Under the pieces are notes generated by a model, which saw only the letters and a program-made list of their open reading frames with translations, was not told the DNA's origin and did not search any database. Shown here piece after piece: positions 40,363 to 56,284 of a DNA stretch of 64,000 bases. Position 1 is the stretch's first letter, and each line of letters starts with the position of its first letter. Origin of the DNA: Candidatus Buchananbacteria bacterium (GTDB lineage: Bacteria; Patescibacteriota; Patescibacteriia; Buchananbacterales; UBA6539); assembly GCA_013359225.1 (NCBI GenBank), contig JABWCG010000002.1:49470-113469 (forward strand). The letters are read 5' to 3'. Made by a program: the position numbers and the translations under genes.

Positions 40363-40491
40363 GGTTTAGAGTATATCAAGAATAATCCTATAAAACAAGG
40401 GGTTTTTGCAAACCAAAGTCGAGTTGACAGCTGTAGGGTTAAGATGCTAATTTAATTAGCTGTCCTTTTTACCAGAGGGAGGGTGTTGGTC

Positions 40492-41085: not shown

Positions 41086-41179
41086 CCGCTTGCTTTTTCC
41101 AACCCCAGGGTTTGATTGGCGTAGCGGTCTTTTTATGTAAGGTTTGATAAAAAGATTTTTTTTGTTATACTAAAACAAT

Positions 41180-41803: not shown

Positions 41804-41875
41804 CATTGATTTTGATTATTTAAAAAGAACCAGAAAAATTTCTGGCTCTTTTTAAATTACCTTGATGTTTATTGG

Positions 41876-42835: not shown

Positions 42836-43068
42836 ACATATTGGAGTAAATCTTTTATTTCCTCAACGTTTGGTATTCGTCCAGCGATTTTCAGTTGTTC
42901 ATCTATCACTAATGCCGGCATGCTCAGAGCGCCATATTGGACAATTTTTTCAAAATCAGTGATTTTTTCAACAGTGGCATTAAGCCCTAACTCACTGACT
43001 GCTAGTCTGGTGTTTACCTCAAGCCGTTGGCAGTTGGGGCAGCCAGACCCTAATATTTTGATGATCAT
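42832..43068 (-). CDS. thioredoxin-family redox-active disulfide protein (CPNC)
   Basis: 78 aa starting MIIKILGSGCPNCQRLE; start overlaps the permease gene; classic partner of the DUF318 permease. Confidence 0.65.
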   Translation of the reverse strand: MIIKILGSGCPNCQRLEVNTRLAVSELGLNATVEKITDFEKIVQYGALSMPALVIDEQLKIAGRIPNVEEIKDLLQYV

Positions 43069-43403
43069 ATGGTTAGGATATTTTTTAATTCTTTTAGTAG
43101 AGTAGTCATCGTTTTTTGATTTAACGAGTAGACGATTTTTTTGCCGTCTCGTTGATTATTAACTATTGCAACATCAAGTAAAATTTTTAAGTGATGTGAC
43201 ACTAAGTTTTGTGGCAACTTCAAAAATTCGAATATCTCACAAACGCATTTAGGGCCAGTTTTTAGCAGGCAGATAATTTTTAGCCGGTTTGGTTCGCCAA
43301 TCACTTTTACTTGTTCGGCCAATGTATCAAGATTTTTATTAATGCAGGAGTTTTTCATATCAATATGTATTGATATATTATTAGATAATTTTTTGGTTGT
43401 CAA
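43065..43403 (-). CDS. arsR: ArsR/SmtB family metalloregulator
   Basis: LKTGPKCVCEIFEFLKLPQNLVSHHLKIL covers the CxC metal site plus winged-HTH; the true start is possibly the internal ATG at 43358. Confidence 0.75.
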   Translation of the reverse strand: MTTKKLSNNISIHIDMKNSCINKNLDTLAEQVKVIGEPNRLKIICLLKTGPKCVCEIFEFLKLPQNLVSHHLKILLDVAIVNNQRDGKKIVYSLNQKTMTTLLKELKNILTI

Positions 43404-43479
43404 GGTCTTTGGTTTAAAATAAAAATCGGCCGATTTTTGGCCGATTTTTAGTAAGGCATTATTTTTTGATGTTGTTTGG

Positions 43480-43983
43480 CTACAAGATGATATTAACGTT
43501 TGCCGGGAGGTTTGTGCGGATGATTTCCAAATCTTGGGAGGAGTAATTATTTCCCGACAAATTCAACGTTTTAAGGTTTTTTAAGTTACCCAATTCGTAG
43601 GGCAGCCCGGTTAGTTGATTGTTTGATAAATCAAGTGTTTGGAGGTTTTGTAGTTGGCCAATTTCTGCCGGTACTCCAGTCATTGTATTATTGGAAGCGT
43701 CTAAGATTTTTAAGTTTTGTAGCTGTCTGATTTCAGCTGGTAGTGCACCGGTTAGTTTATTATTGGAGATGTCCAGCTTTTCCAGATTTGTTTTTTTAAA
43801 AATTTCCTGAGAGATTTCAGTTAACCCCTGACCACTTAGATCAAGTACATTGTTATTTTCGGCAGGTTTTGTTGTTTTTTCTGGTACGATTTGGTCATCA
43901 TTGTTGATGGCGGGTACGGGAGAGATACAGCCAAATAACGTTAAGTTCATTAATAGGATTGAGGTTAAAAATATTTTTTTCAT
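43480..43983 (-). CDS. leucine-rich-repeat lipoprotein
   Basis: Lipobox LTLFGC, then 5 tandem LxxLxLSNNxLTGLPxEIGxLxNL LRR units. Confidence 0.65.
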   Translation of the reverse strand: MKKIFLTSILLMNLTLFGCISPVPAINNDDQIVPEKTTKPAENNNVLDLSGQGLTEISQEIFKKTNLEKLDISNNKLTGALPAEIRQLQNLKILDASNNTMTGVPAEIGQLQNLQTLDLSNNQLTGLPYELGNLKNLKTLNLSGNNYSSQDLEIIRTNLPANVNIIL

Positions 43984-44154
43984 ATGTTGGCATTATACCA
44001 AAAAATTGATTTTAAAGCGATTTTTTAGGGGGTATAAATGTAAAACGGTGCAATGTGTTCTGGCTGGTGTTAAAGGTAAAAATATTGGTTTAAAACTGCT
44101 TATAAAAAACCCCAGCGTACTTATTGTAAGCGTGGGGTTGTATTGTTTCCTGGG

Positions 44155-45600
44155 CTAAAACCATAGCCATACGACGAGATAGACTGGTATGAGAATCAAC
44201 AGACTGTACTTGAGTATATAGCTTAGGAAGCTGGGACATTTGACACCAGCAGCTTCCGCAATGGATTTTACCATCAGGTTAGGGCCATTGCCGATATACG
44301 TCATGGCGCCGAAGAATACTGCGCCAACTGATATTGCAATCACGTGGGCAGGGTAGAGTGCCAGCAGGTAGATCACCTGTAGTTGATCAAACGACAACGA
44401 TTCTCCGGCGTAGTATTTGTTGATGGTTGCAAGCATCAACTGAACCTCTCCGGAAACGATGGTTGGGGGTGCGGCACTGCTGAGTATGGTTTGTACCTGC
44501 GTGATTGTCTCTTGGTTTACTAGCAAGCCTGTAGCCGTGACAAGAAAATTCAAGTACGTCGGGGCATTGTCTAGTACTGACGAGAGGCTACCAGTAGCCC
44601 AAAAGAATTGTCCGGGGGTGCAGATGCCAAGCTCGCAGGCATTGCACTCCAGCCACTCCAGCGCCGGAATCATAGTGGCAAAAATCCCAAAAAAGAGAAT
44701 TGCCACTTCAGTGATCGGCCGGAATTTGAAATCGTTTTTCTGGTACACCCGGCGGCGAGTGGAAAACAACGAAGTTAGGGCGCTACCCATCATCACGATT
44801 TCGCGCAGGGGGCTATCAAGAAAGACTGCTCCCAGAATAACCCCGACAAAAAGGATGTTTTGCACTCCTTCGCTGCCGCTTGAAACGGTTTCGTCTGGTT
44901 TGTGACGGTATCTAATGGGGAATTTGTGGATGTGCCACCAGTCAATGATGTAAAACACCGTCAACACTATCGCGATCGTCGTGATCCACGGCAAGACAAC
45001 TCTGGTGGTTATCCAGAAAAACGGTATTCCCTGGAGGTATCCAAGGAATAGCGGCGGGTCACCAATCGGAGTAAGCGCTCCTCCAATGTTACTTACCACA
45101 AAGATGAAAAACACGATGTGGTGAGGTCTGACCCGACCGCGGTTGAGCCGCAGATATGGTCTGATCAAAATCATTGAAGCACCCGTTGTTCCAACAATGT
45201 TAGCAATCACCGCTCCGATTGCCAGCATAATGACGTTGGTTAGGGGAGTTGCTTGGCCTGGCACGTTGATGTGAATTCCTCCGGCTACCACATAGAGCGA
45301 ACCGATTAGGCAGATAAAGCTGATGTATTCGTAGCTTGTCTCTACTAATCTTTCGGACTGATTCAGGGACAGGTAATAGCCGATAGTAATGGCCGCCAGC
45401 CCAAAGGAGACAACGAAGTAGTATTTTTCCCACCACCGGTTCAGGAATGGCCCCAGGGCGATCGCCAGCAAGAGTGCTGCAAAAGGCAGCATCATGACCG
45501 GGCTTACGCCGCTTGAGTCTGTTGCTTCGGCAAACGCTAAATTGCTAAAGAGCACGATTGCCACAACTGTTGTCATTCTCATCTTGTTCATCCTAAACAT
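44155..45600 (-). CDS. IT-superfamily permease (ArsB/NhaD-like), higher-GC paralogue of the 32462-33853 gene
   Basis: 481 aa, signal-like N-terminus, 10 or more TMs, SVLDNAPTYL and IGNGPN motifs; noticeably higher G+C than neighbours. Confidence 0.45.
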   Translation of the reverse strand: MFRMNKMRMTTVVAIVLFSNLAFAEATDSSGVSPVMMLPFAALLLAIALGPFLNRWWEKYYFVVSFGLAAITIGYYLSLNQSERLVETSYEYISFICLIGSLYVVAGGIHINVPGQATPLTNVIMLAIGAVIANIVGTTGASMILIRPYLRLNRGRVRPHHIVFFIFVVSNIGGALTPIGDPPLFLGYLQGIPFFWITTRVVLPWITTIAIVLTVFYIIDWWHIHKFPIRYRHKPDETVSSGSEGVQNILFVGVILGAVFLDSPLREIVMMGSALTSLFSTRRRVYQKNDFKFRPITEVAILFFGIFATMIPALEWLECNACELGICTPGQFFWATGSLSSVLDNAPTYLNFLVTATGLLVNQETITQVQTILSSAAPPTIVSGEVQLMLATINKYYAGESLSFDQLQVIYLLALYPAHVIAISVGAVFFGAMTYIGNGPNLMVKSIAEAAGVKCPSFLSYILKYSLLILIPVYLVVWLWF

Positions 45601-45884
45601 GCTACGCGCCTCCTTGTTTTTGTTGAACCAACCTAGTTATGCAACCCAGGATGGCCGCATTATATGAAATATATATATTTTGTCAAGGGTCACTAAAAAT
45701 AAAAAGGCTTATTTTAGCCATTTTTAACGGTTTATAATTTTTTTCTATTTTTAATGCATAACCAGCGGGGTCAAATAATATAGATTGCCGCGGATGAATT
45801 TTTAATATTTAGCTAGGTTGACATTTTTAATGCAGGCTGATAAGGTCTAGCTGACAATTGGGTCAACTTTAGGAGGAATGTGCA

Positions 45885-46418
45885 ATGCGAAGCAGAATCT
45901 GTACCTTGTTGGTGGCTGACGCCACGGCCGAAGAATTTTCTCCTTTTGGATCGCTGATTGATCCGCAAGAGGATCAGCGGTCTGCCACTGAGGTTTTGTC
46001 CAAAGACGGGGTGTTTGCCTATTACCCGCAGGACGAAAGCAAGATGCTTAATCCCGGTGGCGAACAGCTGGTTTGTTCGCCGCTTGAGATGTGTTCCCGG
46101 CCGCGCACTGTCCGGGGGCAAATGGAGTACCACCATTGCCATGAAACGCTTTTGTTCCTGGATAACGTTATCCTGGTGGTCGGGCCGCAAGTGCCCGAAT
46201 CGGGGTCGATGGACGGTATCACCCCGCAAGACTTCGCGGCGTTTGCCGTCGAGAAGAACTGTGCCGTGGTGTTGAAACCCCGGACCCTGCATGCCCTGGC
46301 TTTTCCGCGGAGTAACCGGACCGCTCGGGGGCTGGTGTTCTTGCCCTATCAGGCCCACCAAACCGACTGTCACTTCGTCGATATCCCGGAGGGGGCGATC
46401 CTTAAGCCGCAACTTTAG
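45885..46418 (+). CDS. cupin-fold protein resembling ureidoglycolate lyase (AllA family)
   Basis: AEEFSPFGSLID and EYHHCHETLLFLD align by eye with E. coli AllA blocks (EAFSAYGDVIE; ERHPLGTQAFIPM); AGGAGG RBS; high G+C. Confidence 0.45.
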   Translation: MRSRICTLLVADATAEEFSPFGSLIDPQEDQRSATEVLSKDGVFAYYPQDESKMLNPGGEQLVCSPLEMCSRPRTVRGQMEYHHCHETLLFLDNVILVVGPQVPESGSMDGITPQDFAAFAVEKNCAVVLKPRTLHALAFPRSNRTARGLVFLPYQAHQTDCHFVDIPEGAILKPQL

Positions 46419-46585
46419 CGGCTCAGTCGACCGTGCTATATAGTTGCCGGACAGAGTGTTATGCTCTGCCCGGTTTTTATTTTTTACAAAACCAATATGT
46501 TCAATACTATTAACGATAAATATATATTGACAAACGATAAAGAATAAATTAAGATGAAAATATAACAATTTATAATAATTAATCT

Positions 46586-47074
46586 ATGAAAAAAGGCTCA
46601 ATAACATTTCTTCAGATAGTCATTGTAGTTCTGGGCATTGGTGCTCTCGCTCTCTTGCTCTGGGAACCTCGCGTTGAGGGCGTAAATGCGAACGCCACTA
46701 CGCTTCGTGAGATATATTTTGATGATCCCTTTTTGGCGTATGTGTACATCGGCTCCATTGCTTTTTTTGTTGCGCTCTATCAAGCGTTCAAACTGCTCGG
46801 GTACATAGGACGAAGTGAAGTATTTTCGCACCAGGCCGTAAAAGCTCTACGGACTATAAAATACTGCGCGTTGACCATTATTGCTTTTCTTGTGGGCGCG
46901 GAAATTTATATCAATATTGTTCAGCGCAGAGTGGAGGAAGATATTGCGGGAGGCGTCATGGTGGGTCTTTTTCTGATTTTTGTTTCAATGGTTGTCGCGA
47001 CCGCCGCGGCCGTGTTTGAAAAAACGTTACGAACCGCCGTAGAGATAAAAACCGAGAACGATTTAACAGTATAA
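46586..47074 (+). CDS. DUF2975-like membrane protein
   Basis: 162 aa, 4 TMs; immediately followed by a YozG-type HTH gene (the typical DUF2975-HTH pair). Confidence 0.45.
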   Translation: MKKGSITFLQIVIVVLGIGALALLLWEPRVEGVNANATTLREIYFDDPFLAYVYIGSIAFFVALYQAFKLLGYIGRSEVFSHQAVKALRTIKYCALTIIAFLVGAEIYINIVQRRVEEDIAGGVMVGLFLIFVSMVVATAAAVFEKTLRTAVEIKTENDLTV

Positions 47075-47084
47075 GGAGATTACT

Positions 47085-47288
47085 ATGGCAATCATCATTA
47101 ACATTGACGTTATGTTGGCAAAGCGGAAAATGAGTGTTACCGAACTTGCCGAGAAAGTCGGCATTACCATGGCTAATATTTCCGTATTGAAGAATGGCAA
47201 GGCAAAAGCTGTCCGCTTCTCAACTTTAGAGGGAATTTGTAAGGCCCTGGAATGTCAGCCCGGTGATATTTTGGAATATAGGAAGTAG
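47085..47288 (+). CDS. small Cro/C1-type HTH transcriptional regulator (YozG-like)
   Basis: 67 aa starting MSVTELAEKVGITMANISVLKNGKAKAVRFSTLEGICKALECQPGDIL. Confidence 0.7.
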   Translation: MAIIINIDVMLAKRKMSVTELAEKVGITMANISVLKNGKAKAVRFSTLEGICKALECQPGDILEYRK

Positions 47289-47326
47289 TAAAAATATAAC
47301 GGACTAAACAAAAAAAGAGCGATTGT

Positions 47327-47352
47327 GATCGTTCTTTTTTTTGTACGTTTTG
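47327..47352 (+). terminator. intrinsic terminator
   Basis: agagcgat-tgtg-atcgttct hairpin followed by TTTTTTTT. Confidence 0.5.
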
Positions 47353-47475
47353 TAAGACGTTTAGGTTTTTGTAGTGAAGTTGTAATGGCGGGACGCAGTA
47401 AAACGAGTTATAGAGTTTTTTCAGAACAACAAAGGGTATTATTACGTCCCAAAATTTTAAGTTAGTCAAAACAAT

Positions 47476-47823
47476 ATGACAGAAATCCTACATAATCCAA
47501 CAAACCCAACAGAATTGGGTACTCTGCGGGACACATCGGTTGCCAGTCAAGCACCTAAAGCAAAATTTGACGATCCTTCAAGGGTTGGTCAAAAAAAAGA
47601 GCAGAAGCGCACGCGAGAGAAGAAAGACGCGTTTGTGGCAGCTTGTAAAGGTCCCGTGAAAAGTATTGTTACCATGTGCAGAAAAGTTGGAATACACCGC
47701 GACACCTTTTATGCCTGGCGGCGAGCCGATCCGGAGTTTGTAAAAAGGATCCACAACAGCCGAGATGTTTTTTTGACTGAGTTGGAGGCAAGTCTTAAGG
47801 CGCGGGATAAATCCGACACTTAG
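47476..47823 (+). CDS. HTH DNA-binding protein of terminase-small-subunit / IS-transposase HTH type
   Basis: MCRKVGIHRDTFYAWRRADPEF is the characteristic helix-turn-helix of phage TerS / ISxxx OrfA proteins. Confidence 0.4.
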   Translation: MTEILHNPTNPTELGTLRDTSVASQAPKAKFDDPSRVGQKKEQKRTREKKDAFVAACKGPVKSIVTMCRKVGIHRDTFYAWRRADPEFVKRIHNSRDVFLTELEASLKARDKSDT

Positions 47824-48010
47824 GCGTAAAATGTAATTGACAATTTCTAACCTAAACTGCTCTTCTGAGCAGCATGGTTTAAAAACTCACGAAGATACTG
47901 AACCCCACGTTCAGCGATTCTTCGTGAGTCATATCGGGAAACTGGTATGGGGCTTAAAAACCCTGCTGGCGTGGGGCTTTGTGTATCTAAAAATTAATAA
48001 CCTAAAACTT

Positions 48011-48919
48011 ATGACCAACATAGCGCATGGAGGAAAGAAGTGGCTAACTTTGGTGGCCCTGGCTATCATAGCCACACCACTTTTAGCTGCCTGCACTCCT
48101 CAAACACCATCAGCCAATAATGGGCAGAAGCAAACTCAAGAGGCTCAGCTTGACACTACGCAAGAATCAGAAGCTGATACTAACCAGCAGCCTGCTGATA
48201 TTACTGAATCGGATCAACAAGCAGATGAAAGCTTTTTAGTCATCCGAGTAATTGACGGCGACACGGTTGAGTTGGAGGACGGTTCACGCGTCAGATATAT
48301 CGGCATCGATACTCCTGAGACCGTGGACCCTTCAAAACCAGTCCAGTGTTTTGGCAAAGAAGCCTCTCAAAAGAATACTGAGTTAGTTTTGAACAAGCAA
48401 GTCAGGTTAGAAAAAGATATCAGTGACAAAGACCGCTACGGCCGGTTGCTACGGTATGTTTATGTTGGTGACACTTTTGTAAACCTGGAATTAGTTAAGC
48501 AAGGCTTTGCCAGTTCATACTCATACCCACCAGATGTTAAATACCAAGACCAGATCGTAGCAGCGCAAACTGAAGCCAGAGAGCAGAAACGAGGTCTATG
48601 GTCAGCCTGCAATACCGGATCAACTAACAACGCAGCACCCCAACTAAACAGTGGTTCGACAAACACCAACACGAATACAGTCACGCCACAACCAACCCCA
48701 ACTACGCCGACCCCGGCTCCGCAAGAACCAGCTACGACACCAACTCAGCAATGTAATATTAAAGGCAACATTAGCGCTGCCGGTGAAAAAATTTATCACG
48801 TGCCAGGTTGTGGTAGCTACAACCAAACTAAAATTGACGAAAGCCAAGGAGAGAAATGGTTTTGTAGCGAAGCCGAGGCAGTAGCTGCTGGCTGGAGGAA
48901 GGCTAAAAACTGTCCTTGA
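48011..48919 (+). CDS. secreted thermonuclease (staphylococcal-nuclease fold) lipoprotein with Thr/Pro linker and extra C-terminal domain
   Basis: Lipobox LLAAC (start at ATG 48011), SNase motifs VIRVIDGDTVEL, RYIGIDTPE and DRYGRLLRYVYV, linker TPQPTPTTPTPAPQEPATTPT, C-terminal HVPGCGSYNQTKIDESQGEKWFCSEAEAVAAGWRKA. Confidence 0.75.
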   Translation: MTNIAHGGKKWLTLVALAIIATPLLAACTPQTPSANNGQKQTQEAQLDTTQESEADTNQQPADITESDQQADESFLVIRVIDGDTVELEDGSRVRYIGIDTPETVDPSKPVQCFGKEASQKNTELVLNKQVRLEKDISDKDRYGRLLRYVYVGDTFVNLELVKQGFASSYSYPPDVKYQDQIVAAQTEAREQKRGLWSACNTGSTNNAAPQLNSGSTNTNTNTVTPQPTPTTPTPAPQEPATTPTQQCNIKGNISAAGEKIYHVPGCGSYNQTKIDESQGEKWFCSEAEAVAAGWRKAKNCP

Positions 48920-49018
48920 TTATACCCCCTTACCTTAGATGGAAATTTTATCTGGGCCCGCTACAATCTGTTGCGGGCTTAAATAATAAAGTAAAAAATG
49001 TTATAATTACATCAAATA

Positions 49019-50194
49019 ATGTCTACACGATTACTAACAAAAATTGAATTAAAGGAGGATCTGGCAAAGGTTCTTCTTAAGCAAGGATACCGAGTTAAAA
49101 ATAGTGTTTTGCAGTTGAGGAAAGATGACCGAGAATCCAAACGTCAAGCTCATTTGCTTGCCAAAGCTGAACGAATTATAGCTCAGGAGAATTTCATTTT
49201 AAAAAACATATCACTCATTGAAAAATCTTTGATTAATGGTTGTGACTTGGATGTGAGTAAAATTAAGCCAAAATTGATCTTGGTGGAACCTCGCAGTGAG
49301 TGGGAAAAAATTTTCCGATGGTGGAGCCTTGTCTGGTGGAGCCTGCCAAATGAAAGGTCTTATGGAAGACAAATGAGATTTATAGTTTGGGACTCATACC
49401 ATAAAGCACCTATAGGTTTAATCGGTTTGCAAAGCCCTATTTTAAGTTGGTCGGTTAGAGATTCGTTTTTAAAAATCAAACCGGAAAAAAGAGATTACTG
49501 GGTAAACCAATCTTTAAGTGCACAGCGGTTGGGAGCGTTGCCCCCATACAATGATGTTTTGGGAGGCAAACTTGTTGCTTCTCTGCTTACGTCAAATGTG
49601 GTACGCAATGAATTCGAAAGAAAATATCGCAACGCTAAAACTGTAATGAAGAACCGTAAGATTCCACCAAGATTGTTATTTATAACAACTACAGGGGCTT
49701 ATGGAAAAAGTAGCATTTATTCTCGGCTCAAATTTGGTGGTCGTGAAATTGTAAAATTTATTGGGTATAGTCACGGAGTTGGCTCTTTTCACATCCCAAA
49801 TTATCTTTATGATAATTTAATAAAATATTTAGCCTCTAAAGACATCGACACCTCAAGGGGCTACGGTTCAGGTCCATCACGTAAATTACGTTTGATTGAC
49901 CAGTCAATGTCACTATTAGGATTTAAACATGGTACCAAACATGACATTAAAAGAGGTGTTTATATTTTTGAACTCACAACCAACTTGGAGGCTGTTATAA
50001 GTAAAGGCGAAAAACCAAAGTGGGTACACAGGTCAGTCAAGGCGCTGAGTAAATACTGGATGGATCGGTGGGGTATCCCTCGTAGTCAACGCGACAATAC
50101 TTACCTTAATTTTAATAAGGACAAATTTATCACCCAAACCATTAAAGAGTTAGAGGGATTTAAAAAATCATATAAAAATATCCGCAATGCCTGA
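49019..50194 (+). CDS. unrecognised basic protein, first gene of the NurA/HerA cassette
   Basis: 391 aa, no TM, Lys/Arg/Trp-rich, no motif I can assign; stop overlaps the NurA-like start by 8 nt (ATGCCTGA). Confidence 0.55.
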   Translation: MSTRLLTKIELKEDLAKVLLKQGYRVKNSVLQLRKDDRESKRQAHLLAKAERIIAQENFILKNISLIEKSLINGCDLDVSKIKPKLILVEPRSEWEKIFRWWSLVWWSLPNERSYGRQMRFIVWDSYHKAPIGLIGLQSPILSWSVRDSFLKIKPEKRDYWVNQSLSAQRLGALPPYNDVLGGKLVASLLTSNVVRNEFERKYRNAKTVMKNRKIPPRLLFITTTGAYGKSSIYSRLKFGGREIVKFIGYSHGVGSFHIPNYLYDNLIKYLASKDIDTSRGYGSGPSRKLRLIDQSMSLLGFKHGTKHDIKRGVYIFELTTNLEAVISKGEKPKWVHRSVKALSKYWMDRWGIPRSQRDNTYLNFNKDKFITQTIKELEGFKKSYKNIRNA

Positions 50195-51392
50195 TTCAAG
50201 CCAGGGACAATCGCAGGTTTATAGACACTTACCCGAAGAATTACTTGGAGATATTCTTGAACATGTTCCTCAAACTGTAGAAAAAATGAATAAAATGTTT
50301 GATATTCAGGACGAACCGATTAAACAAGGCATAGAAACATTAAAACAAAAAAACATGATCACGAGTCTCTCTGGTAATGTTTTTTCAACCTCATTAATTG
50401 CAGTAGACGGTGGAATGGTACTTGAAAAAATGTCAGGTACAGACATTTTGTTGGCCGTTGCAGTAGGAGTTGAGGGTTTGACTGAAGATAAGGGAAGCGG
50501 TTGGGAAAAGGGAAAAAATCAGTTTGTCCAGTGGCAGACTGTTCTTCCACACGACGGAGCGAATGCTCGACTTGCCCAAGGAGTTATGTTTTTGATGGAA
50601 ATGACCGTCCTTTCAAATGATTCACATGAAATACGTATTATGGATGGGACCCACTTTACTCCAATATTGAAAGTTAATAGTTTGCTATCTTCTAACGAAG
50701 AAAAGGCTGGGGCTGAATACAAGCAAGCACTAAAAGATTTTTTAAAGGAAACATATAATAAAATAATTCCTGATATACCTAACATTATTTCATCCGCTTT
50801 AACTGACGATAAGATAGTAGCCATTGCAAAGTACAGTTCCTCAAGGGATATCTTGGATGCCTACTTGAAAGATAAAAATATAAGCCTGGATGACAAAACT
50901 TTTTTTACTCTTGGGCTCTCGGAGAATGAGTATACAAAACCTTTGTCAGTTGGCCAAAGCAAGGAAGAGCGTGGAAAAGTCTGGAACGACTTGCACATAA
51001 AATGTAATTTAAAATTTAGTGATGTTAATGATAATGAGTTAGATACTTTATTTAAAAAAATTATCAAGCCTATCAGAACTCAGGAATTCCCTCATAAAGA
51101 CTCTTCATTATTTTTTACTTATTTTAAACCGTTTAACCAAGGTCCTGCCTACAGAATAGAGATAAAAAAATCTCTTGCGGATGATATCAATAGATTGGAA
51201 AAAGTTCTATTGAGTATTAAAAAGCAAATTGTATTTCCAGAAATTCGAGAACCTTTTCCTCAATACTTAGTTGATCTTATGGCTAAAAGTGTTGCTGGGG
51301 GGTTATTTGCTATTCAAGAGGCCATTAGGTTATCGCCGGAGCTTAATATTGATAAAGGCAAATTCGATTTACTTTTTCCATATAGAACATAA
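50187..51392 (+). CDS. NurA-like nuclease (RNase-H-like fold, 5'-3' exo/endonuclease partner of HerA)
   Basis: SLIAVDGGMVLEK (NurA motif I, catalytic Asp) and IMDGTH further downstream, about 400 aa, immediately upstream of a HerA-type ATPase. Confidence 0.5.
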   Translation: MPDSSQGQSQVYRHLPEELLGDILEHVPQTVEKMNKMFDIQDEPIKQGIETLKQKNMITSLSGNVFSTSLIAVDGGMVLEKMSGTDILLAVAVGVEGLTEDKGSGWEKGKNQFVQWQTVLPHDGANARLAQGVMFLMEMTVLSNDSHEIRIMDGTHFTPILKVNSLLSSNEEKAGAEYKQALKDFLKETYNKIIPDIPNIISSALTDDKIVAIAKYSSSRDILDAYLKDKNISLDDKTFFTLGLSENEYTKPLSVGQSKEERGKVWNDLHIKCNLKFSDVNDNELDTLFKKIIKPIRTQEFPHKDSSLFFTYFKPFNQGPAYRIEIKKSLADDINRLEKVLLSIKKQIVFPEIREPFPQYLVDLMAKSVAGGLFAIQEAIRLSPELNIDKGKFDLLFPYRT

Positions 51393-51411
51393 TTATTAAA
51401 TTAGACTCAAA

Positions 51412-53301
51412 ATGACAGAATCAAAGAAAATTTCAGAAGAATTACTTAAAGTCCTAAATGACCAGTCGCGCGCAATCGTTGGTATCACCGGATCACCGAG
51501 TAATACCTTGGATATAGAAATAGACATAACTGAAACAAGTAAATCAGACCGTGTTTTGGGGCAGATGGTTTATGTTGTTGTTGAGGAAGACAATAGGAAA
51601 GTCTTGGTAATTGGACAAATTATTAAGATTGAAACAAAAAACAGATGGCATGAAGACATGGCCTTTAAGGGAGTTATAAAAAGACATGGGAAGTTGCCTC
51701 ATCTGAGTGGAGCTGCCGACAATAGACTGGCTAAAATCAGCGTCCAGGCATGTTATGATTTAGGCGGTTCAGAGCCAAGAACGCACATCCTTGGAACCTC
51801 TCCTTCAACTGGTGAAAAAGTGCAGAAGATGGATAATGAAGTTATGAAAAAATTGATGGAAAACCATGGCGAATCAGTCACTTATATTGGTAAAGTCTAC
51901 GGTACAGATGTTAACCTGCCATTCTGGTTTAAACATTTTGACAAAACTCTTAGCGGAGAGTTAGGAGCAAAGGACGCTTATCATATTGGAATTTTTGGAA
52001 AGACCGGGTCAGGCAAAACTGTCACCGCTGCAATGGCTTTATTGGGGTATGCTAAGAATAAAAATAACATGAATATACTGGTTTTGGACCCACAGGGACA
52101 GTTTTATGTTGACAACGAACTATTACCTAACGACAAAAAACTTGAACAAGCCGTCGGTGATATTGGGATGAAATACAAAAAGTTTAAAATTTTGGAAGAT
52201 TTATATTTACCAGGCAATGCCTTTGACTTATTTGGTAATCTTTTATTAAAGAGTGGTTTTGTGAGTAAGTCATTCAATATCCTTAGTGACAGGGAGGTGA
52301 ATGCAGCTGACGCAATCTCAGAATATTTAGAATCGTATAATAAAAAAAGTAAGGGTAAGTCGGCAAACTTAACAAAATTATCAGACGAGGGTTATAGCCT
52401 TGATTTAATGAAAAAAACACTTCAGAAATTTACTGAGGTTACAGAAGATGCAAGTGGTAAAAAAAGTTATAGCCGGTATTTGGATATGATATACTCCGAT
52501 GGTCGAAGAAAAGATCAAGTTATTGGAAAATTAAATTCCGTCTTAAGTAATGAAACTTATATTAAAAATTTATTTGACAGACGCTGGAGCCCTGTAGCTA
52601 AGTTATTTGCACAGGTTAAAAATGATGGGACTAATAAGATTACTGTAAATGAGATAATAGATTTAGTTTCATCTGAAACCGACAAAGGAAATTTTGTAGT
52701 CCTTGATATGAGCGAGAGGGGTGGTTCAGAAATCAGTGAGAACTTACAAGCATTGTTTGTGAAGATGGTTCAAGAGGGTCTAATGGAAAAGGGGGAAGAC
52801 TTCTACACCAAAGATAAAAAAGTGAATTGTCTTGTAGTTATGGATGAAGCTCATCGTTTCATTTCTCATGCGTCATCGGACCTCCAGATAGTCGAATTAA
52901 CCAAAGATATTATTGATGCTGTTAGAACCACCCGCAAGTTTGGCATTGGCTATATGTTTATAACGCAGACCATAGAGTCTCTTGATGAGGAAATCTTGAG
53001 ACAAATGCGAATCTTTGGTTTTGGCTATGGACTTACATCTGGATCAGAACTTAGAACGGTTGGCGAAATTATTAACAACCCATCAGCCATTCAGCTATAT
53101 CGCTCTTTTATTGACCCCAGTAGTAACGGTAAGTTCCCATTTATGTTTTTTGGCCCAATTTCGCCACTTTCATTTACTGGGTCGCCATTGTTTTTAGAAG
53201 TTTTTACTGACTATGGTATGTTTGAGACCGTAAATGGTGTCACATCTAATACAGACGCTGGAGGTAAGCCCGAGGAATCAAAAAATGTTGAAAGTAGTTG
53301 A
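51412..53301 (+). CDS. HerA-like (DUF87) FtsK/HerA-superfamily ATPase
   Basis: N-terminal HAS-barrel-like segment (VGITGSP...GQMVYVVVEEDNRKVLVIGQI), Walker A GIFGKTGSGKT, Walker B LVVMDEAHRF, no TM helices (argues against a VirD4/TraG coupling protein). Confidence 0.65.
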   Translation: MTESKKISEELLKVLNDQSRAIVGITGSPSNTLDIEIDITETSKSDRVLGQMVYVVVEEDNRKVLVIGQIIKIETKNRWHEDMAFKGVIKRHGKLPHLSGAADNRLAKISVQACYDLGGSEPRTHILGTSPSTGEKVQKMDNEVMKKLMENHGESVTYIGKVYGTDVNLPFWFKHFDKTLSGELGAKDAYHIGIFGKTGSGKTVTAAMALLGYAKNKNNMNILVLDPQGQFYVDNELLPNDKKLEQAVGDIGMKYKKFKILEDLYLPGNAFDLFGNLLLKSGFVSKSFNILSDREVNAADAISEYLESYNKKSKGKSANLTKLSDEGYSLDLMKKTLQKFTEVTEDASGKKSYSRYLDMIYSDGRRKDQVIGKLNSVLSNETYIKNLFDRRWSPVAKLFAQVKNDGTNKITVNEIIDLVSSETDKGNFVVLDMSERGGSEISENLQALFVKMVQEGLMEKGEDFYTKDKKVNCLVVMDEAHRFISHASSDLQIVELTKDIIDAVRTTRKFGIGYMFITQTIESLDEEILRQMRIFGFGYGLTSGSELRTVGEIINNPSAIQLYRSFIDPSSNGKFPFMFFGPISPLSFTGSPLFLEVFTDYGMFETVNGVTSNTDAGGKPEESKNVESS

Positions 53302-53939
53302 CAGAGATAAGGCAGTTGATATAATTAAGTTATTACAATTCAAAACGCAGGTAGGAAGTATGTTACTGGGTCATTTTGACCCGGTGGGACGGACACAAAA
53401 AATCCGCACTACTCAGGACTAAAAACTTGAGCACAGCTTCTATACGCAGACGGTTGTTTACTGGGCGTACTGACCATTTGTAACATTTAGGTCAGCCTAT
53501 CGGCGGGTCTTGTGTCTTGAAAAAGCAAGATTGAGCTTAGGAGCCTCCAAATTTTTTCACGAATTAACTATTCGTCCAAAAATTTGGGGGCTTTTTGTAT
53601 TTCACCAGCTACATTCCGTCCCGAGTTGGACAGGTGCACGTAGCTGGGTACCTGTTCAGCCCGGGGCGGATTTTGCTTAATAGAGCAAATCAGCAGGCTG
53701 AAGGGATAATTTAATCAGGCTTAGGAAGGTGCTATAACCAAGATGAATATTAGAGAGGAAAATCTACAACGCTTCATCGACCTCTACGAGAGGAAATATG
53801 CTGTCCGCTTAGGCAGGCAGGAGGCTTATAATATGTTTTTAAAGCTGATAAATCTGGTAAAAATAGCCAATTTTGATGCTCACAGCCAGCAATTTACTGA
53901 CCACACTTAATGTAGTATCGTTGTGGTTGGGAGAAAAAT

Positions 53940-55601
53940 ATGCAAAATCAAGAGGAAAAATTAATCTATGTCTCCTACAGGAGAAAATCAAGCGAGTCTG
54001 AAGATCGGCAGACTTTAAGCCTGGATTCCCAAAAAAAGGAGCTTAGTGCTTTTGCCGACAAATATGGGCTAAGGGTTAAATTTGATTTTGCAGAATCTCA
54101 GTCAGCCTATAGTCGTGGCCGCCCGAAATTTTTAGAAATGGTTGAGTTAATTGAATCAGGTCAGGCTAATGCCATATTGGTTTATCATATTTCCAGATTG
54201 GCGAGGAATATGACAGACGGTGGTTTGATTATTGATATGCTAAAGGACGGAGTTATTAAAGAAATAAGAACACCGCACGAACAATATACAAAAGATTCCG
54301 GCCAGGAATTTATATTAGCCCTTAATTTTGCCATGTCAAAGAAGAGCTCTGACGATACCTCAGAGTTTGTTAAAAGAGACATTGAAGCAAAATTACGAAA
54401 GGGAGAATGGCCCGGCATGGCGCCGACAGGCTATTTGAATCTTGATAGTAATGGAAAAATAGCTGGCAAAAATTATAGTTTAGAAAAACAAATTGCATTG
54501 AGCAAAATTAAAAGACCATTGAGACGGATAGAGCATGATCCATTTTTAGCACAACTAATTTCGAAATTATTTGAGAAATCAGCGACCAACCAATACATAC
54601 TGGATGAACTGGCTGAAATGGCTATGGAGTGGGGTATTATTGGCAACAGAAGCGGCAAAAAGCTCAGCGAATCATCAGTTTATCGTATTTTAACCAACCC
54701 TTTCTATTACGGGGCTATTCGTTGGAAAGAGACTATTATTGAACCAGAGGATTTGCCAGCACAAAGCCGCCATGAAGCAATTATCAGTCGGGAGTTATTT
54801 AACAGAGTTCAGGAAGTCCTGGGTTTAAGGACAAAATACGTCAGTCCCAAACGATGTTATAAATATTCTAATATTATGACTTGTGGTATCTGCGGCGGCC
54901 ACATGTCAGGGATTACCGCCAAGGATATTACCTACTATCGTTGTTGTAAGTGCAGAGGCGTCGCTTATGTGAAAGAGGGTGAGCTTGAAAAACAGATAGT
55001 GGCTTTTTTAGAAACTATGACCATAGACGAAGATTTTTATAAGCTGGCAATCGAGGAAATAAATCATGCTAATGAGAACGAAATCAAAACCAGAGATGCA
55101 ATCAAGGACCAGCAGGATCGGGAGCTAAAACATTGTCAGATCAGATTTGATAATTTACTAAGGCTTAAAATTTCACCTGAAAATAAAAACGGAGAACTTT
55201 TAAGTGAGGCTGATTTTGTCAGACAGAAAAAGATCATTGACGAAGAGATGTCATCTATCAAGGAAAGGATTGGTGACACAGACAGGCAAAGTCAGAATTG
55301 GTTTGATTTGTGTGTAGAATACTTTGATTTTACAACCAGGCTGGTTAATAAGTTTAGAGAAGCCGGTCCGGAGAAACGTCGGGAGATATTTGAATTTTGT
55401 TACTATAACCCGCAAATAAACGCGCAAATACTAACGAATAGCGCGAATAACCCGCATAAGTTTATCATTCAGGCAAATTCCATAAACAGCGCCACTATAA
55501 CCGCAAATAATGACTTAAGTAAAACAAAAACAGCAGCCAATATGGCTTCTGTTTCCGAATGGCGGGAGCGAAGGGGCTCGAACCCTCGACCTTCTGCGTG
55601 A
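53940..55601 (+). CDS. large serine recombinase (integrase)
   Basis: N-terminal resolvase catalytic domain (YVSYRRKSSESEDRQTLSLDSQ...ILVYHISRLAR), recombinase domain, zinc ribbon (CGICGGHM...YYRCCKCRG), coiled-coil; 3' end overlaps the tRNA-Asp gene. Confidence 0.85.
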   Translation: MQNQEEKLIYVSYRRKSSESEDRQTLSLDSQKKELSAFADKYGLRVKFDFAESQSAYSRGRPKFLEMVELIESGQANAILVYHISRLARNMTDGGLIIDMLKDGVIKEIRTPHEQYTKDSGQEFILALNFAMSKKSSDDTSEFVKRDIEAKLRKGEWPGMAPTGYLNLDSNGKIAGKNYSLEKQIALSKIKRPLRRIEHDPFLAQLISKLFEKSATNQYILDELAEMAMEWGIIGNRSGKKLSESSVYRILTNPFYYGAIRWKETIIEPEDLPAQSRHEAIISRELFNRVQEVLGLRTKYVSPKRCYKYSNIMTCGICGGHMSGITAKDITYYRCCKCRGVAYVKEGELEKQIVAFLETMTIDEDFYKLAIEEINHANENEIKTRDAIKDQQDRELKHCQIRFDNLLRLKISPENKNGELLSEADFVRQKKIIDEEMSSIKERIGDTDRQSQNWFDLCVEYFDFTTRLVNKFREAGPEKRREIFEFCYYNPQINAQILTNSANNPHKFIIQANSINSATITANNDLSKTKTAANMASVSEWRERRGSNPRPSA

Positions 55602-55636
55602 CAGGCAGACGCTCTAACCAACTGAGCTACGCCCCC
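55560..55636 (-). tRNA. tRNA-Asp (anticodon GUC), CCA encoded
   Basis: The reverse complement folds as a canonical cloverleaf: acceptor GGGGGCG/CGCUCCC, D-arm GCUC-AGUUGGUUA-GAGC, anticodon arm UCUGC-CUGUCAC-GCAGA, T-arm GAGGG-UUCGAGC-CCCUU, 3' GCCA. Confidence 0.85.
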
Positions 55637-55667
55637 GTGAATGGGTCCGCATAGGACCCATTATACA

Positions 55668-56015
55668 TTATTTTTTGATTTGTTCAACAATTTTGGCAAA
55701 AGCCTTTGGTTGCTTTTCGGCCAGCTGTGACAACGCCTTGCGGTCAGCTTCGATCTTGTTGTCTTTCAACAGTTTGATGAATTTAGAATAGGTCAAACCG
55801 TTGGCGCGACAAGCGGCGTTGATGCGGATCGTCCAGGTTGAGCGATTATCTCGCTTTTTCTTGCGGCGGTCGCGCAGCGCGTGGGTGCCGGCTTTATTCA
55901 CGGCCGTTTTGGCGGCGCGAATAGTATTGCGGCGGCTCCAGCGATAACCCTTTGTCTTTTTCAACAGTCGTTTTCGTCTGGCAGCGTGGCTTGTGCCTCT
56001 TTTAACTCTCGGCAT
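55668..56015 (-). CDS. rplT: 50S ribosomal protein L20
   Basis: MPRVKRGTSHAARRKRLLKKTKGY... is canonical L20. Confidence 0.95.
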   Translation of the reverse strand: MPRVKRGTSHAARRKRLLKKTKGYRWSRRNTIRAAKTAVNKAGTHALRDRRKKKRDNRSTWTIRINAACRANGLTYSKFIKLLKDNKIEADRKALSQLAEKQPKAFAKIVEQIKK

Positions 56016-56032
56016 ACGTGTAACTTAATTTG

Positions 56033-56233
56033 TTATGAGTAGGGAATTAACCGTTTGATGTTTTTGACATCAGACTTCGACAGGTCTTGTGAACGACGCT
56101 TGCGTCGTGAAACTTTACCGGTTTCTCGAGCATTAAAATGATCTTGCCCGGCATGCTTGGTCAAAAACTTCTTTTTTTTGCCTTTAGTTACTTTAACTTT
56201 TTTGGCAGTTGATTTGTGGGTTTTTAATTTCAT
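56033..56233 (-). CDS. rpmI: 50S ribosomal protein L35
   Basis: MKLKTHKSTAKKVKVTKGKKKKFLTKHAG... Confidence 0.9.
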   Translation of the reverse strand: MKLKTHKSTAKKVKVTKGKKKKFLTKHAGQDHFNARETGKVSRRKRRSQDLSKSDVKNIKRLIPYS

Positions 56234-56284
56234 AATGTGGTGTGAAAATTAAAAAACAGCTTTTTGCTGCTGAGTGCAGATTAA

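What the first reader, a model, noticed from the sequence alone, without database searches (positions are those of the whole stretch)
49019..50194. Orphan 391-aa protein translationally coupled to the NurA-like gene
It is basic and Trp-rich, with no TM, no P-loop, and no nuclease or HTH motif I can recognise. Its stop overlaps the NurA start (ATGCCTGA). A dedicated third component of this kind usually specifies the sensor or effector role in HerA-containing systems.
Basis: seen in the sequence. Interest (0 to 1): 0.6.

Follow-up and report, generated by a model that had tools for sequence, protein, structure and literature searches.

The report
DruA–NurA–HerA three-gene defence cassette
The "orphan" protein belongs to the DruA (DUF4338) family known from the Druantia anti-phage system, and here it is the first gene of a widespread, apparently undescribed three-gene cassette in which DruA is joined to a NurA nuclease and a HerA DNA motor instead of the usual Druantia partners.

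Summary
The ORF is real. It runs 49019-50194 on the + strand, encodes 391 aa with pI 10.1 and 2.8% Trp, and its stop overlaps the next start (ATGCCTGA).

It is not an orphan. It matches Pfam PF14236 DruA/DUF4338 (E 6e-56) and the PADLOC DruA model (E 9e-87). It is 33% identical over 93% of its length to DruA of canonical druABCDE operons.

The window has no DruB-E. The next two genes are a true NurA-fold nuclease and a HerA-type ATPase with intact Walker motifs.

The trio is an obligate cassette:
- Among 52 DruA-anchored genome loci from more than 12 phyla, nearly all with enough sequence carry DruA, NurA and HerA.
- 59 of 60 NurA-anchored metagenome loci have DruA directly upstream, and 55 of 55 have HerA downstream.
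- The median DruA-NurA gap is 2 nt.

DruA is also a swappable module. It pairs with divergent NurA/HerA lineages, with a kinase-ORC/Cdc6 ATPase plus a CARF-like gene, with GHKL ATPases, and with DruB-E.

Its predicted fold is a divergent GNAT-like core with an invariant polar pocket.

My best reading is a mobile anti-invader system. HerA-NurA would degrade DNA, and DruA would act as an enzymatic licensing module. That role is inferred, not shown. I found no description of the cassette in the searchable literature.

The parts
48999..49007 (+). Putative extended -10 promoter element (TGtTATAAT), 11 nt upstream of the DruA ATG. It implies a very short leader or a leaderless mRNA.
   Evidence: Read directly from the sequence. 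The consensus scan did not list it because no -35 element matches. A 6-bp GC hairpin at 48956-48978 precedes it. This part is inferred only.
49019..50194 (+). druA-like gene: 391-aa DUF4338/DruA-family protein, basic, with a GNAT-like core at about aa 84-330.
   Evidence: Pfam PF14236 E 6.3e-56 and PADLOC DruA E 9.4e-87. It is 33% identical over 93% of its length to DruA of the Ralstonia pUW163a druABCDE operon. AF2 model pLDDT 87.3. Foldseek hits against PDB are weak but almost all are GNATs. Residues R117, D125, G133, R147, D148, P175-P176-Y177, G183, K184, Y203, G229, S231, Y234 and R236 are each conserved in at least 90% of 101 distant family representatives (D125, G133 and P176 in 100%).
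50187..50194 (+). Stop/start overlap ATGCCTGA, giving translational coupling of druA to nurA.
   Evidence: Across 99 non-redundant loci the DruA-stop to NurA-start gap has a median of 2 nt, 89% lie within +/-12 nt, and 36% overlap.
50187..51392 (+). nurA-like gene: 401-aa RNase H-fold NurA-family nuclease.
   Evidence: Pfam NurA 30.4 bits against a cut-off of 21. The AF2 model (pLDDT 65.5) gives Foldseek top 10 PDB hits that are all NurA (2ygk E 2.4e-9; 9x1m HerA-NurA complex), probability 1.0. D74, E138, D153, D363 and K367 are each conserved in at least 97% of 73 cassette sequences.
51412..53301 (+). herA-like gene: 629-aa HerA/FtsK-superfamily ATPase.
   Evidence: Pfam DUF87 (HerA central domain) E 4e-9 and PADLOC HerA E 4.5e-16. 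The nearest solved sequences are Sulfolobus HerA 4d2i (E 6.9e-6), TdpA and a chain deposited as a HerA central domain-containing protein (8wiv). Walker A residues G196-K202, Walker B residues D478-E479, and R505/R508 are conserved in at least 97% of 73 cassette sequences.
53940..55601 (+). Context, not core: a large serine recombinase directly downstream. It is the probable mobility gene of the island carrying the cassette.
   Evidence: Pfam Resolvase, Recombinase and Zn_ribbon_recom. Its 3' end overlaps tRNA-Asp at 55560-55636 (-). Serine recombinases also flank the cassette in L005/L006 and L145, where there are two, and in 4 of about 33 surveyed loci. The cassette has 36-37.5% GC against 42.6% for the window.

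Best explanation
The gene encodes a DruA (DUF4338) protein. It is the first gene of a self-contained, horizontally mobile three-gene cassette, druA-nurA-herA, which most likely protects the cell against invading DNA from phages or plasmids. Proposed mechanism: HerA forms the ATP-driven dsDNA translocase ring and feeds DNA into the NurA nuclease, as in solved HerA-NurA complexes. This pair is the executioner. DruA is a basic enzyme with a divergent GNAT (acyltransferase-like) core and a strictly conserved polar pocket. It acts upstream as the licensing or discrimination module that decides when, or on which DNA, the HerA-NurA machine is let loose. It probably does so through a catalytic step on a nucleic-acid-linked or nucleotide-like substrate, not by binding variable phage proteins. 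Shown here: family membership of all three proteins, obligate and tightly coupled gene linkage, sporadic distribution across phyla, and DruA's modular re-use with other NTPase modules. Inferred: the defence role, the HerA-NurA division of labour (by homology), and the role and chemistry of DruA.
For: DruA identity. Obligate triad: nearly all DruA-anchored genome loci with enough downstream DNA carry NurA plus HerA, almost always collinear. Of NurA-anchored metagenome loci, 59/60 have DruA upstream and 55/55 have HerA downstream. Gaps are tight: median 2 nt for DruA-NurA and 9 nt for NurA-HerA. All three proteins look active. This rests on conserved residues, the NurA fold and the HerA Walker motifs. 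Accessory and mobile character: the cassette occurs sporadically in Patescibacteria, Nitrospirota, several proteobacterial classes, Bdellovibrionales, Acidobacteriota, Omnitrophota, Brocadiales, Bacteroidota and Firmicutes at 45-67% identity. Its GC is lower than the window's. Its neighbours include serine recombinases, R-M methylases, EcoRV, PIN/MazE and SocA-Panacea, with no conserved fourth gene. Some copies are pseudogenised (L056, L057, L059). None was found in IMG/VR viral contigs. DruA as a portable enzymatic front end: it also pairs with DruB-E, with STK-ORC/Cdc6 AAA+ plus a CARF6-like gene, and with GHKL ATPases. It is reported fused to DndF (PMC10853773). DruA phylogeny is decoupled from its partners: Mantel r is 0.40-0.42 against 0.92 for NurA-HerA, and the L017 and L072 chimeras show the same thing. 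GNAT-like fold; PMC10853773. HerA-NurA degrading both strands of dsDNA, with a suggested antiviral role: PMC12977600.
Confidence: 0.55

Rival explanations
1. This is an R-M-like system. DruA covalently marks self DNA (or a DNA-associated molecule) by acyl transfer, and HerA-NurA destroys unmarked incoming DNA. DruA would be the 'modification' gene and HerA-NurA the 'restriction' genes.
For: DruA is an enzyme-like, highly conserved, basic protein. It is almost always the first gene, or has its own promoter when the partners are inverted. It is exchangeable between unrelated NTPase/'reader' modules, as methyltransferases are. Solitary DUF4338 genes occur in phages (Pelagibacter phage Mosig; Synechococcus phages per 10.1101/2025.08.05.668817). 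This is the pattern seen for phage-borne orphan methylases. One family representative is fused to ParB_N plus a DNA-methylase fragment, and another to DUF488. GNAT/TGT-driven DNA modification with HerA/FtsK has been proposed for BRC systems (PMC12839542). From my own memory, in type II Druantia the first gene is a methylase (DruM).
Against: DNA acylation as a self-mark has no precedent in defence systems. No acyl-CoA motif is recognisable. No reader domain for a mark is evident in NurA or HerA. The fusion evidence rests on single clusters, and the methylase hit is below the Pfam cut-off.
Confidence: 0.2
2. DruA is a second effector, a GNAT-type toxin that acylates aminoacyl-tRNA or proteins to arrest the cell (abortive infection), with HerA-NurA acting as the sensor or primary effector.
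For: GNAT toxins are established TA effectors (my own knowledge). The Aravind lab interpreted the DUF4338/GNAT domain fused to DndF as a possible co-effector acting on proteins (PMC10853773). In the kinase/ORC/CARF-partnered cassettes no nuclease is present, so DruA could be the effector there.
Against: No antitoxin-like partner is present. At 390 aa with extra N- and C-terminal domains, DruA differs from the roughly 175-aa GNAT toxins. The cassette already has a nuclease effector. DruA sits first in the operon and is co-translated with NurA, which would need tight post-translational control.
Confidence: 0.1
3. This is a housekeeping or stress DNA-repair module. NurA-HerA performs double-strand-break end resection as in Deinococcus and archaea, and DruA is a repair accessory factor.
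For: NCBI names the NurA homologues 'DNA double-strand break repair nuclease NurA'. The fold and motifs match repair HerA-NurA.
Against: The proteins score far below the NCBIfam equivalog cut-offs (NurA 25.9 against 400 bits; HerA 42 against 800). There is no Mre11/Rad50 neighbour. The distribution is sporadic and HGT-like, copies are pseudogenised, the cassette has an island-like GC and recombinase/R-M context, and its partner DruA belongs to a defence family.
Confidence: 0.07
4. The cassette serves the mobile element itself, either for DNA pumping or processing during transfer or replication of the serine-recombinase island, or as an addiction module.
For: HerA/FtsK ATPases are relatives of conjugative pumps, and there are weak hits to VirB4, TraC and TrwB. 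Serine recombinases are recurrent neighbours.
Against: Most loci have no recombinase or any other transfer gene next to the cassette. The flanks are otherwise unrelated. The cassette is absent from viral contigs.
Confidence: 0.06

Closest known systems
Type I Druantia (DruA-DruB-DruC-DruD-DruE)
   Same: The first gene is a full-length DruA/DUF4338 protein of about 390-410 aa. It is 33% identical to DruA of the Ralstonia pUW163a and Nitrosococcus pNWAT01 operons, and 54 alignment columns are invariant across both clades. Both are operons whose first gene is followed by an NTPase machine.
   Different: There is no DruB, DruC or DruD, and no giant DruE (DUF1998) helicase anywhere in the 64-kb window. 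The partners are NurA and HerA. The cassette is 4.3 kb instead of about 11.5 kb (Ralstonia operon). Canonical DruAs form a separate clade.
HerA-NurA complex of archaea and Deinococcus (DNA end processing)
   Same: Adjacent nurA and herA genes, a NurA RNase H-like fold, and a HerA ATPase with Walker A/B motifs. The presumed mechanism is a hexameric translocase feeding a NurA dimer (PMC12977600).
   Different: The sequences are very divergent and well below the equivalog cut-offs. The pair is obligately preceded by DruA. There is no Mre11/Rad50 linkage. The distribution is mobile and sporadic in bacteria.
Two-gene HerA defence systems (Sir2-HerA, DUF4297-HerA)
   Same: A HerA-family ATPase is coupled to an effector enzyme in a compact defence operon. 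PADLOC HerA models hit the window protein.
   Different: The effector is NurA, not Sir2 or DUF4297. There is a third obligatory gene, DruA. The NCBIfam 'HerA_antiphage' models score only about 16 bits against cut-offs of 800-850.
DndFGH and related HerA/FtsK 'capture' systems, and BREX-related capture (BRC) systems
   Same: A HerA/FtsK translocase is combined with nucleases and, in some members, a GNAT domain. DUF4338 is reported as an N-terminal fusion of DndF, and GNAT occurs with TGT in BRC (PMC10853773, PMC12839542).
   Different: None of the Dnd, BREX, PglZ, ORC-like or TGT components is present. DruA is free-standing and universal in this cassette, not occasional.
DruA + Ser/Thr-kinase-ORC/Cdc6 AAA+ + CARF6-like cassette (found here in L047, L050-L052)
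   Same: It uses the same DruA clade, interleaved in the tree. DruA is also the first gene, with the same tight spacing and even the same inverted variant.
   Different: The two partner genes are entirely different and include no nuclease or HerA. As far as I could find, this cassette is also undescribed.

Membership tests
DruA / DUF4338 (Pfam PF14236) | Match to the family HMM above the curated cut-off over most of the model. | tested here: met
   190.1 bits against a cut-off of 27, model positions 11-294 of 297. PADLOC DruA PDLC00002 E 9.4e-87 over aa 8-374.
DruA / DUF4338 (Pfam PF14236) | Full-length homology to DruA proteins that sit in bona fide druABCDE operons. | tested here: met
   tblastn gives 33% identity over 93% of the length, E 1e-53, to Ralstonia pUW163a DruA. 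That gene is followed by four genes, including a 1851-aa DEAD/DEAH helicase. The same holds for Nitrosococcus pNWAT01.
DruA / DUF4338 (Pfam PF14236) | Retention of the family-wide conserved residues. | tested here: met
   Every residue conserved in at least 90% of 101 distant representatives is present in the window protein: W107, S108, P110, G116, R117, D125, G133, R147, D148, G172, P175, P176, Y177, G183, K184, Y203, G229, S231, Y234, R236, G249, G253, G255, R355.
Type I Druantia system | DruB, DruC and DruD genes follow DruA. | tested here: not met
   The next genes are NurA and HerA. There are no PADLOC DruB-D hits.
Type I Druantia system | DruE, a roughly 1800-2100-aa DUF1998 superfamily-2 helicase, in the locus. 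| tested here: not met
   No ORF of 1000 aa or more exists in the whole 64-kb window. The three largest other ORFs have no DruE hit.
GNAT acyltransferase superfamily (fold level) | beta1-alpha1-alpha2-beta2-beta3-beta4-alpha3-beta5-alpha4-beta6-beta7 core recognisable by structure comparison. | tested here: inconclusive
GNAT acyltransferase superfamily (fold level) | Acetyl-CoA pyrophosphate-binding motif Q/R-x-x-G-x-G/A in the beta4-alpha3 loop. | tested here: not met
   The equivalent loop reads L-P-P-Y-N-D-V-L-G-G-K (aa 174-184). It is highly conserved in the family but does not fit the motif. No Pfam GNAT family is hit even at E<=10.
NurA nuclease family (downstream gene) | NurA/RNase H-like fold and a conserved acidic catalytic set. 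| tested here: met
   Pfam NurA is above the cut-off. The Foldseek top 10 hits are all NurA structures, with E from 2.4e-9 to 1.7e-6. D74, E138, D153 and D363 are each conserved in at least 97% of 73 sequences. Assigning these to catalytic positions is an inference.
HerA/FtsK ATPase family (third gene) | HerA central ATPase domain with Walker A and Walker B motifs. | tested here: met
   DUF87 37.3 bits against a cut-off of 23.2. GKTGSGKT and VVMDEAH are conserved in at least 97% of sequences. Sulfolobus HerA 4d2i is the best solved relative.
Housekeeping HerA-NurA DSB-repair equivalogs (NCBIfam NF041033, NF040937, NF040819) | Score above the equivalog cut-off. | tested here: not met
   NurA_Sulf scores 25.9 bits against 400. 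HerA_Thermprot scores 42.3 against 800. helicase_HerA scores 22.2 against 970.
Sir2-HerA / DUF4297-HerA defence systems | A Sir2 or DUF4297 effector gene next to HerA. | tested here: not met
   The neighbours are NurA and DruA only.
Anti-phage defence system (functional class) | Demonstrated protection against phage or plasmid. | not testable with these tools
   Only context evidence is available: a mobile, sporadic cassette with R-M, TA and recombinase neighbours.

The most novel reading that the evidence does not exclude
DruA may be a portable self-marking or signal-generating enzyme: a GNAT-fold transferase acting on DNA or a nucleotide. It would plug into at least four unrelated NTPase 'reader/executor' modules, namely DruB-E, NurA-HerA, kinase-ORC/Cdc6 plus CARF, and GHKL ATPases. 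If so, the DruA-NurA-HerA cassette would be the minimal example of an acylation-based (non-methyl, non-phosphorothioate) restriction-modification-like immunity. It would also give the first direct evidence that bacterial NurA-HerA is an antiviral DNA shredder.
Probability: 0.18. Interest if true: 0.9.

Novelty: new variant of a known kind. Interest (0 to 1): 0.6.

Why it matters
DruA is the founding Pfam marker of Druantia, yet its function is still listed as unknown. Type I Druantia is a five-gene system of about 11.5 kb in the Ralstonia operon examined here and is hard to dissect. This 4.3-kb, three-gene cassette places the same protein next to one of the best-understood DNA-degrading machines, HerA-NurA. 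That gives a much simpler system in which to find out what DruA does.

It also bears on an open question raised again in 2026 (PMC12977600): is HerA-NurA really a repair complex, or an antiviral nuclease? A widespread, mobile bacterial NurA-HerA pair that is obligately tied to a defence-family protein supports the antiviral reading.

Finally, DruA is swapped between several unrelated ATPase modules. This suggests a general, reusable front end in prokaryotic immunity.

Tried and rejected
1. Integration-site (att) repeats of the putative island. Direct and inverted repeat searches over 40000-56500 found only short AT-rich chance matches. This is not surprising for a serine recombinase, so the island boundaries remain undefined.

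2. Solved structures by sequence. There is no PDB hit for the DruA profile. For the NurA profile there were only spurious HPF hits.

4. Sequence-level link of the DruA core to Pfam GNAT families. None was found at E<=10 for six diverse cores.

5. Phage-borne copies of this DruA clade. None was found in IMG/VR. In the INPHARED phage collection there is only one distant DUF4338, in Pelagibacter phage Mosig.

6. A fourth conserved gene. A survey of 128 flanking ORFs found none. The methylases seen in about 6-7 loci differ in size, side and strand, so they are independent R-M genes.

7. Conservation of the structured HerA-recombinase intergenic region. It has no blastn match in any of the fetched loci, so it is not part of the cassette.

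8. The original Druantia paper (Doron 2018) could not be read. Statements about type II/III gene order and deletion phenotypes are from memory only.

9. Rejected: the Trp-rich stretch FRWWSLVWWSLP as a membrane segment. In the model it is helix alpha1 of the core, at high confidence.
Full report
OBSERVATION

The ORF at 49019-50194 (+) is present exactly as described.
- It starts with ATG and ends with TGA.
- Its last eight bases, ATGCCTGA (50187-50194), contain the start codon of the next ORF, 50187-51392.
- The product is 391 aa, with pI 10.14, 18.7% Lys+Arg and 2.8% Trp. The neighbouring proteins have 0.5-0.9% Trp.
- A TGtTATAAT extended -10-like element lies 11 nt upstream of the ATG, at 48999-49007 (read).
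- The three genes 49019-53301 have 36-37.5% GC, against 42.6% for the window.
- An identical protein is on record from a Candidatus Buchananbacteria MAG on a 188.5-kb contig, where it is named 'DUF4338 domain-containing protein'.

THE PROTEIN IS NOT AN ORPHAN

- It matches Pfam PF14236 (DruA, formerly DUF4338) at 190 bits against a cut-off of 27, E 6.3e-56.
- It matches the PADLOC DruA model PDLC00002 end to end, E 9.4e-87.
- Against plasmids, tblastn finds 33% identity over 93% of its length (E 1e-53) to genes annotated 'Druantia anti-phage system protein DruA'.
- In Ralstonia pUW163a and Nitrosococcus pNWAT01 those genes head classical type I Druantia operons, each with a helicase of about 1850 aa.
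- A joint alignment of both clades keeps 54 invariant columns.
- A profile search of 1.84 billion cluster representatives finds 2421 DruA-family clusters at E<=1e-3 and 508 at E<=1e-30.

THE OTHER TWO GENES

The 401-aa product of 50187-51392:
- It passes the Pfam NurA cut-off.
- Its AF2 model (pLDDT 65.5) retrieves only NurA structures as the ten best PDB matches. These include S. solfataricus 2ygk (E 2.4e-9), the T. kodakarensis HerA-NurA complexes and P. furiosus NurA.
- D74, E138, D153, D363 and K367 are each conserved in at least 97% of 73 cassette sequences.

The 629-aa product of 51412-53301:
- It has the HerA central domain (DUF87) and hits PADLOC HerA models.
- Its Walker A (GKTGSGKT) and Walker B (VVMDEAH) motifs are conserved in at least 97% of those sequences.
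- Its nearest solved relatives by sequence are Sulfolobus HerA, TdpA and a chain deposited as a HerA central domain-containing protein (8wiv).

Both proteins score far below the NCBIfam equivalog cut-offs for the repair HerA and NurA.

The window contains no DruB-D and no DruE-sized ORF. This is therefore not a Druantia type I locus.

THE TRIO IS A CONSERVED CASSETTE

Scan anchored on DruA:
- A scan of one genome per GTDB species gave 52 loci from more than a dozen phyla.
- Among the loci with enough downstream sequence, almost all carry DruA, NurA and HerA collinearly.
- In a Kaiserbacteria genome, DruA is instead convergent with HerA-NurA.

This scan was anchored on the NurA-like protein in JGI metagenomes:
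- 59 of 60 loci with at least 1.3 kb upstream have DruA immediately upstream.
- 55 of 55 loci with room have HerA downstream.
- The single exception, L121, is cut inside HerA. DruA could lie beyond the contig end, as in the convergent arrangement.

Gene spacing across 99 non-redundant loci:
- The DruA-stop to NurA-start distance has a median of 2 nt. 89% lie within +/-12 nt and 36% overlap.
- The NurA-HerA gap has a median of 9 nt.

No fourth gene is conserved. Among 128 nearest flanking ORFs:
- The commonest families are N6/N4 DNA methylases (7), serine recombinases (4) and NUDIX (3). Eco57I, PD-(D/E)XK and EcoRV also occur, among many unrelated housekeeping genes.
- The methylases vary in size, side and strand.

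Further points on context:
- Individual loci also show PIN/MazE, SocA-Panacea and Type ISP R-M neighbours.
- Large serine recombinases directly flank the cassette in the window, in L005/L006 and, on both sides, in L145, the closest relative.
- Degraded copies exist in L056, L057 and L059.
- No member of this clade was found in IMG/VR viral contigs.

DruA IS A SWAPPABLE MODULE

Four DruA-anchored loci lack NurA and HerA (L047, L050, L051, L052). There DruA is followed, equally tightly and once convergently, by two other genes:
- an 850-aa protein with a Ser/Thr kinase fused to an ORC/Cdc6-like AAA+ ATPase;
- a 380-aa CARF6/HFX_2341-like protein.

In a neighbour-joining tree these DruAs are interleaved with the triad DruAs. 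Canonical Druantia DruAs form a separate clade.

Within the triad, NurA and HerA co-evolve closely (Mantel r 0.92). DruA is only loosely coupled to either of them (r 0.40-0.42). Clear chimeras exist:
- L017 has a DruA 54% identical to the window's, but its NurA is 23% identical and its HerA 32%.
- L072 has a canonical-type DruA (28% identity to the window's; 428 bits to the Pfam model) with NurA and HerA at 66% and 53%.

Other contexts:
- On Roseivivax plasmids a longer DruA follows two GHKL ATPases.
- The Aravind lab reports DUF4338 fused to DndF, the partner of HerA-containing DndH (PMC10853773).
- Rare fusions found here join DruA to DUF488 and to ParB_N plus a methylase fragment.
- Solitary DUF4338 genes occur in Pelagibacter phage Mosig and reportedly in Synechococcus phages.
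- DruA-like folds appear in giant-virus proteins.

WHAT DruA LOOKS LIKE

- The AF2 model is confident (pLDDT 87.3, pTM 0.85).
- Residues about 84-330 follow the GNAT strand/helix order, with two helical inserts.
- Foldseek against PDB gives no significant hit (best E 0.058). Even so, nearly all of the top 50 hits are GNAT acyltransferases, which agrees with the published assignment (PMC10853773).
- The canonical acetyl-CoA loop motif is not present. In its place is a highly conserved LPPYNxxLGGK.
- No Pfam GNAT model is hit.
- Across 101 representatives only 24-52% identical to the window protein, at least 90% keep R117, D125, G133, R147, D148, P175-P176-Y177, G183-K184, Y203, G229, S231, Y234, R236 and R355. 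This is an Arg/Lys/Tyr/Asp-rich set typical of a catalytic or phosphate-binding pocket.
- DruA is about as conserved as the ATPase: mean pairwise identity is 53%, against 55% for HerA and 57% for NurA. That is unlike sensors that bind variable phage proteins.

MECHANISM

Shown here:
- family memberships of all three proteins;
- obligate and translationally coupled linkage;
- intact catalytic motifs;
- a mobile, sporadic distribution;
- modular re-use of DruA.

From established knowledge: HerA hexamers translocate dsDNA into a NurA dimer, which degrades both strands. An antiviral role has been suggested but not shown (PMC12977600).

Inferred:
- The cassette is an anti-invader system in which HerA-NurA executes.
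- DruA is an enzymatic licensing or discrimination step.

Among the specific roles for DruA, I rank a catalytic licensing or regulatory function first. An R-M-like self-marking function comes second. The evidence for self-marking:
- DruA is the first gene in the operon;
- it is exchangeable in the way methylases are;
- solitary copies occur in phages;
- one representative is fused to a ParB/methylase.

A co-effector toxin comes third. Housekeeping repair and a function for the mobile element itself are unlikely, for the reasons listed under the rival explanations.

COMPARISON AND NOVELTY

- At the protein level this is a known family, and NCBI already names close homologues DruA.
- At the system level, no paper in the searchable library combines Druantia or DruA with NurA and HerA.
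- PADLOC v2 has no model for this NurA.
- The cassette is best described as a new variant of a known kind: a Druantia-related DruA module married to a NurA-HerA executor.

Caveats:
- Subscription-only literature could not be searched, and the original Druantia paper was not readable.
- The defence role rests on context alone.

VERDICT

- Interest is 0.6. The cassette gives a minimal, tractable handle on DruA, whose function is still listed as unknown. It also bears on whether NurA-HerA is an antiviral machine.

Noticed in passing
window 47849-47963 (+): A strong match to the Rfam LOOT RNA (RF03000): 82.5 bits against a gathering score of 46.4, E 8e-15. It overlaps the 5' end of the mechanically called SNase ORF (47837-48919, TTG start). 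The true SNase start is therefore probably an internal Met preceding a lipoprotein-like signal (MTNIAHGGKKWLTLVALAIIATPLLAAC).
   Followed up: partly
window 53298-53740 (+): A perfect sigma-70 consensus (TTGACA-16-TATAAT, with TG) at 53298-53325 overlaps the HerA stop. It is followed by about 400 nt that fold far better than shuffles (MFE -152.7 against -110.5 kcal/mol, z = -7.1). The region has no Rfam match, no convincing ORF and no similarity in any fetched locus. It is a candidate unknown structured RNA between HerA and the serine recombinase.
   Followed up: partly
window 53940-55636: The large serine recombinase ORF (53940-55601, +) runs about 42 nt into tRNA-Asp(GTC) on the opposite strand (55560-55636). 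This suggests an island integrated at, or rebuilding, the tRNA 3' end. No att repeat was found.
   Followed up: partly
L047 7977-12826; L050 8001-11516; L051 8004-12747; L052 8001-12915: A second DruA cassette: DruA, then a Ser/Thr kinase fused to an ORC/Cdc6-like AAA+ ATPase (about 850 aa), then a CARF6/HFX_2341-like protein (about 380 aa). It occurs in Bacteroidota, Ignavibacteria and Gammaproteobacteria MAGs. Its DruAs are interleaved phylogenetically with the NurA/HerA-linked ones.
   Followed up: partly
L144 956-7182 (Roseivivax plasmid pTHAF40_c): A 662-aa long-form DruA, with the DUF4338 domain in its C-terminal half, directly follows two GHKL (HATPase_c_3, MORC-like) ATPase genes. This is yet another partner module for DUF4338.
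   Followed up: partly
L001/L008 8001-12239 (Candidatus Kaiserbacteria): An inverted architecture: DruA on one strand, convergent with HerA-NurA on the other, only 4 nt from the HerA stop. The locus is next to a SocA-Panacea antitoxin-like gene and inserted beside the ribosomal protein operon.
   Followed up: no
L056 7953-12143; L057 8010-8762; L059 8124-8923: Decayed copies of the cassette. In the complete genome of Ca. Zeuxoniibacter abyssi (L056), DruA and HerA are each split into two ORFs. L057 and L059 hold truncated remnants.
   Followed up: no
L145 4099-14306: In the closest relative (DruA 66% identical) the cassette is bracketed by two large serine recombinase genes, one upstream and one downstream. 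This resembles a small recombinase-mobilised island.
   Followed up: no
proteins P0369, P0482, P0397/P0409/P0416/P0418/P0427/P0429/P0443: DruA fusions among family representatives: an N-terminal DUF488-N3 domain (P0369); a C-terminal ParB_N plus a DNA-methylase fragment (P0482); and a recurrent C-terminal extension of about 250 aa with no Pfam match (seven clusters).
   Followed up: partly
L143 4575-5873 (Pelagibacter phage Mosig); BFVD hits: A solitary DUF4338 gene in a pelagiphage lies next to MazG and 2OG-Fe(II) oxygenase genes. DruA-like folds also occur inside 470-1260-aa proteins of giant viruses (Faunusvirus, Yasminevirus, Dasosvirus), with Foldseek E from 8e-16 to 2e-9.
   Followed up: no
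window 47476-48919 (+): Directly upstream of the cassette lie a 115-aa transposase-type HTH protein and a secreted staphylococcal-nuclease homologue (PADLOC C3a212 'SNc+LTD', E 9e-36). Neither is conserved next to the cassette elsewhere.
   Followed up: partly
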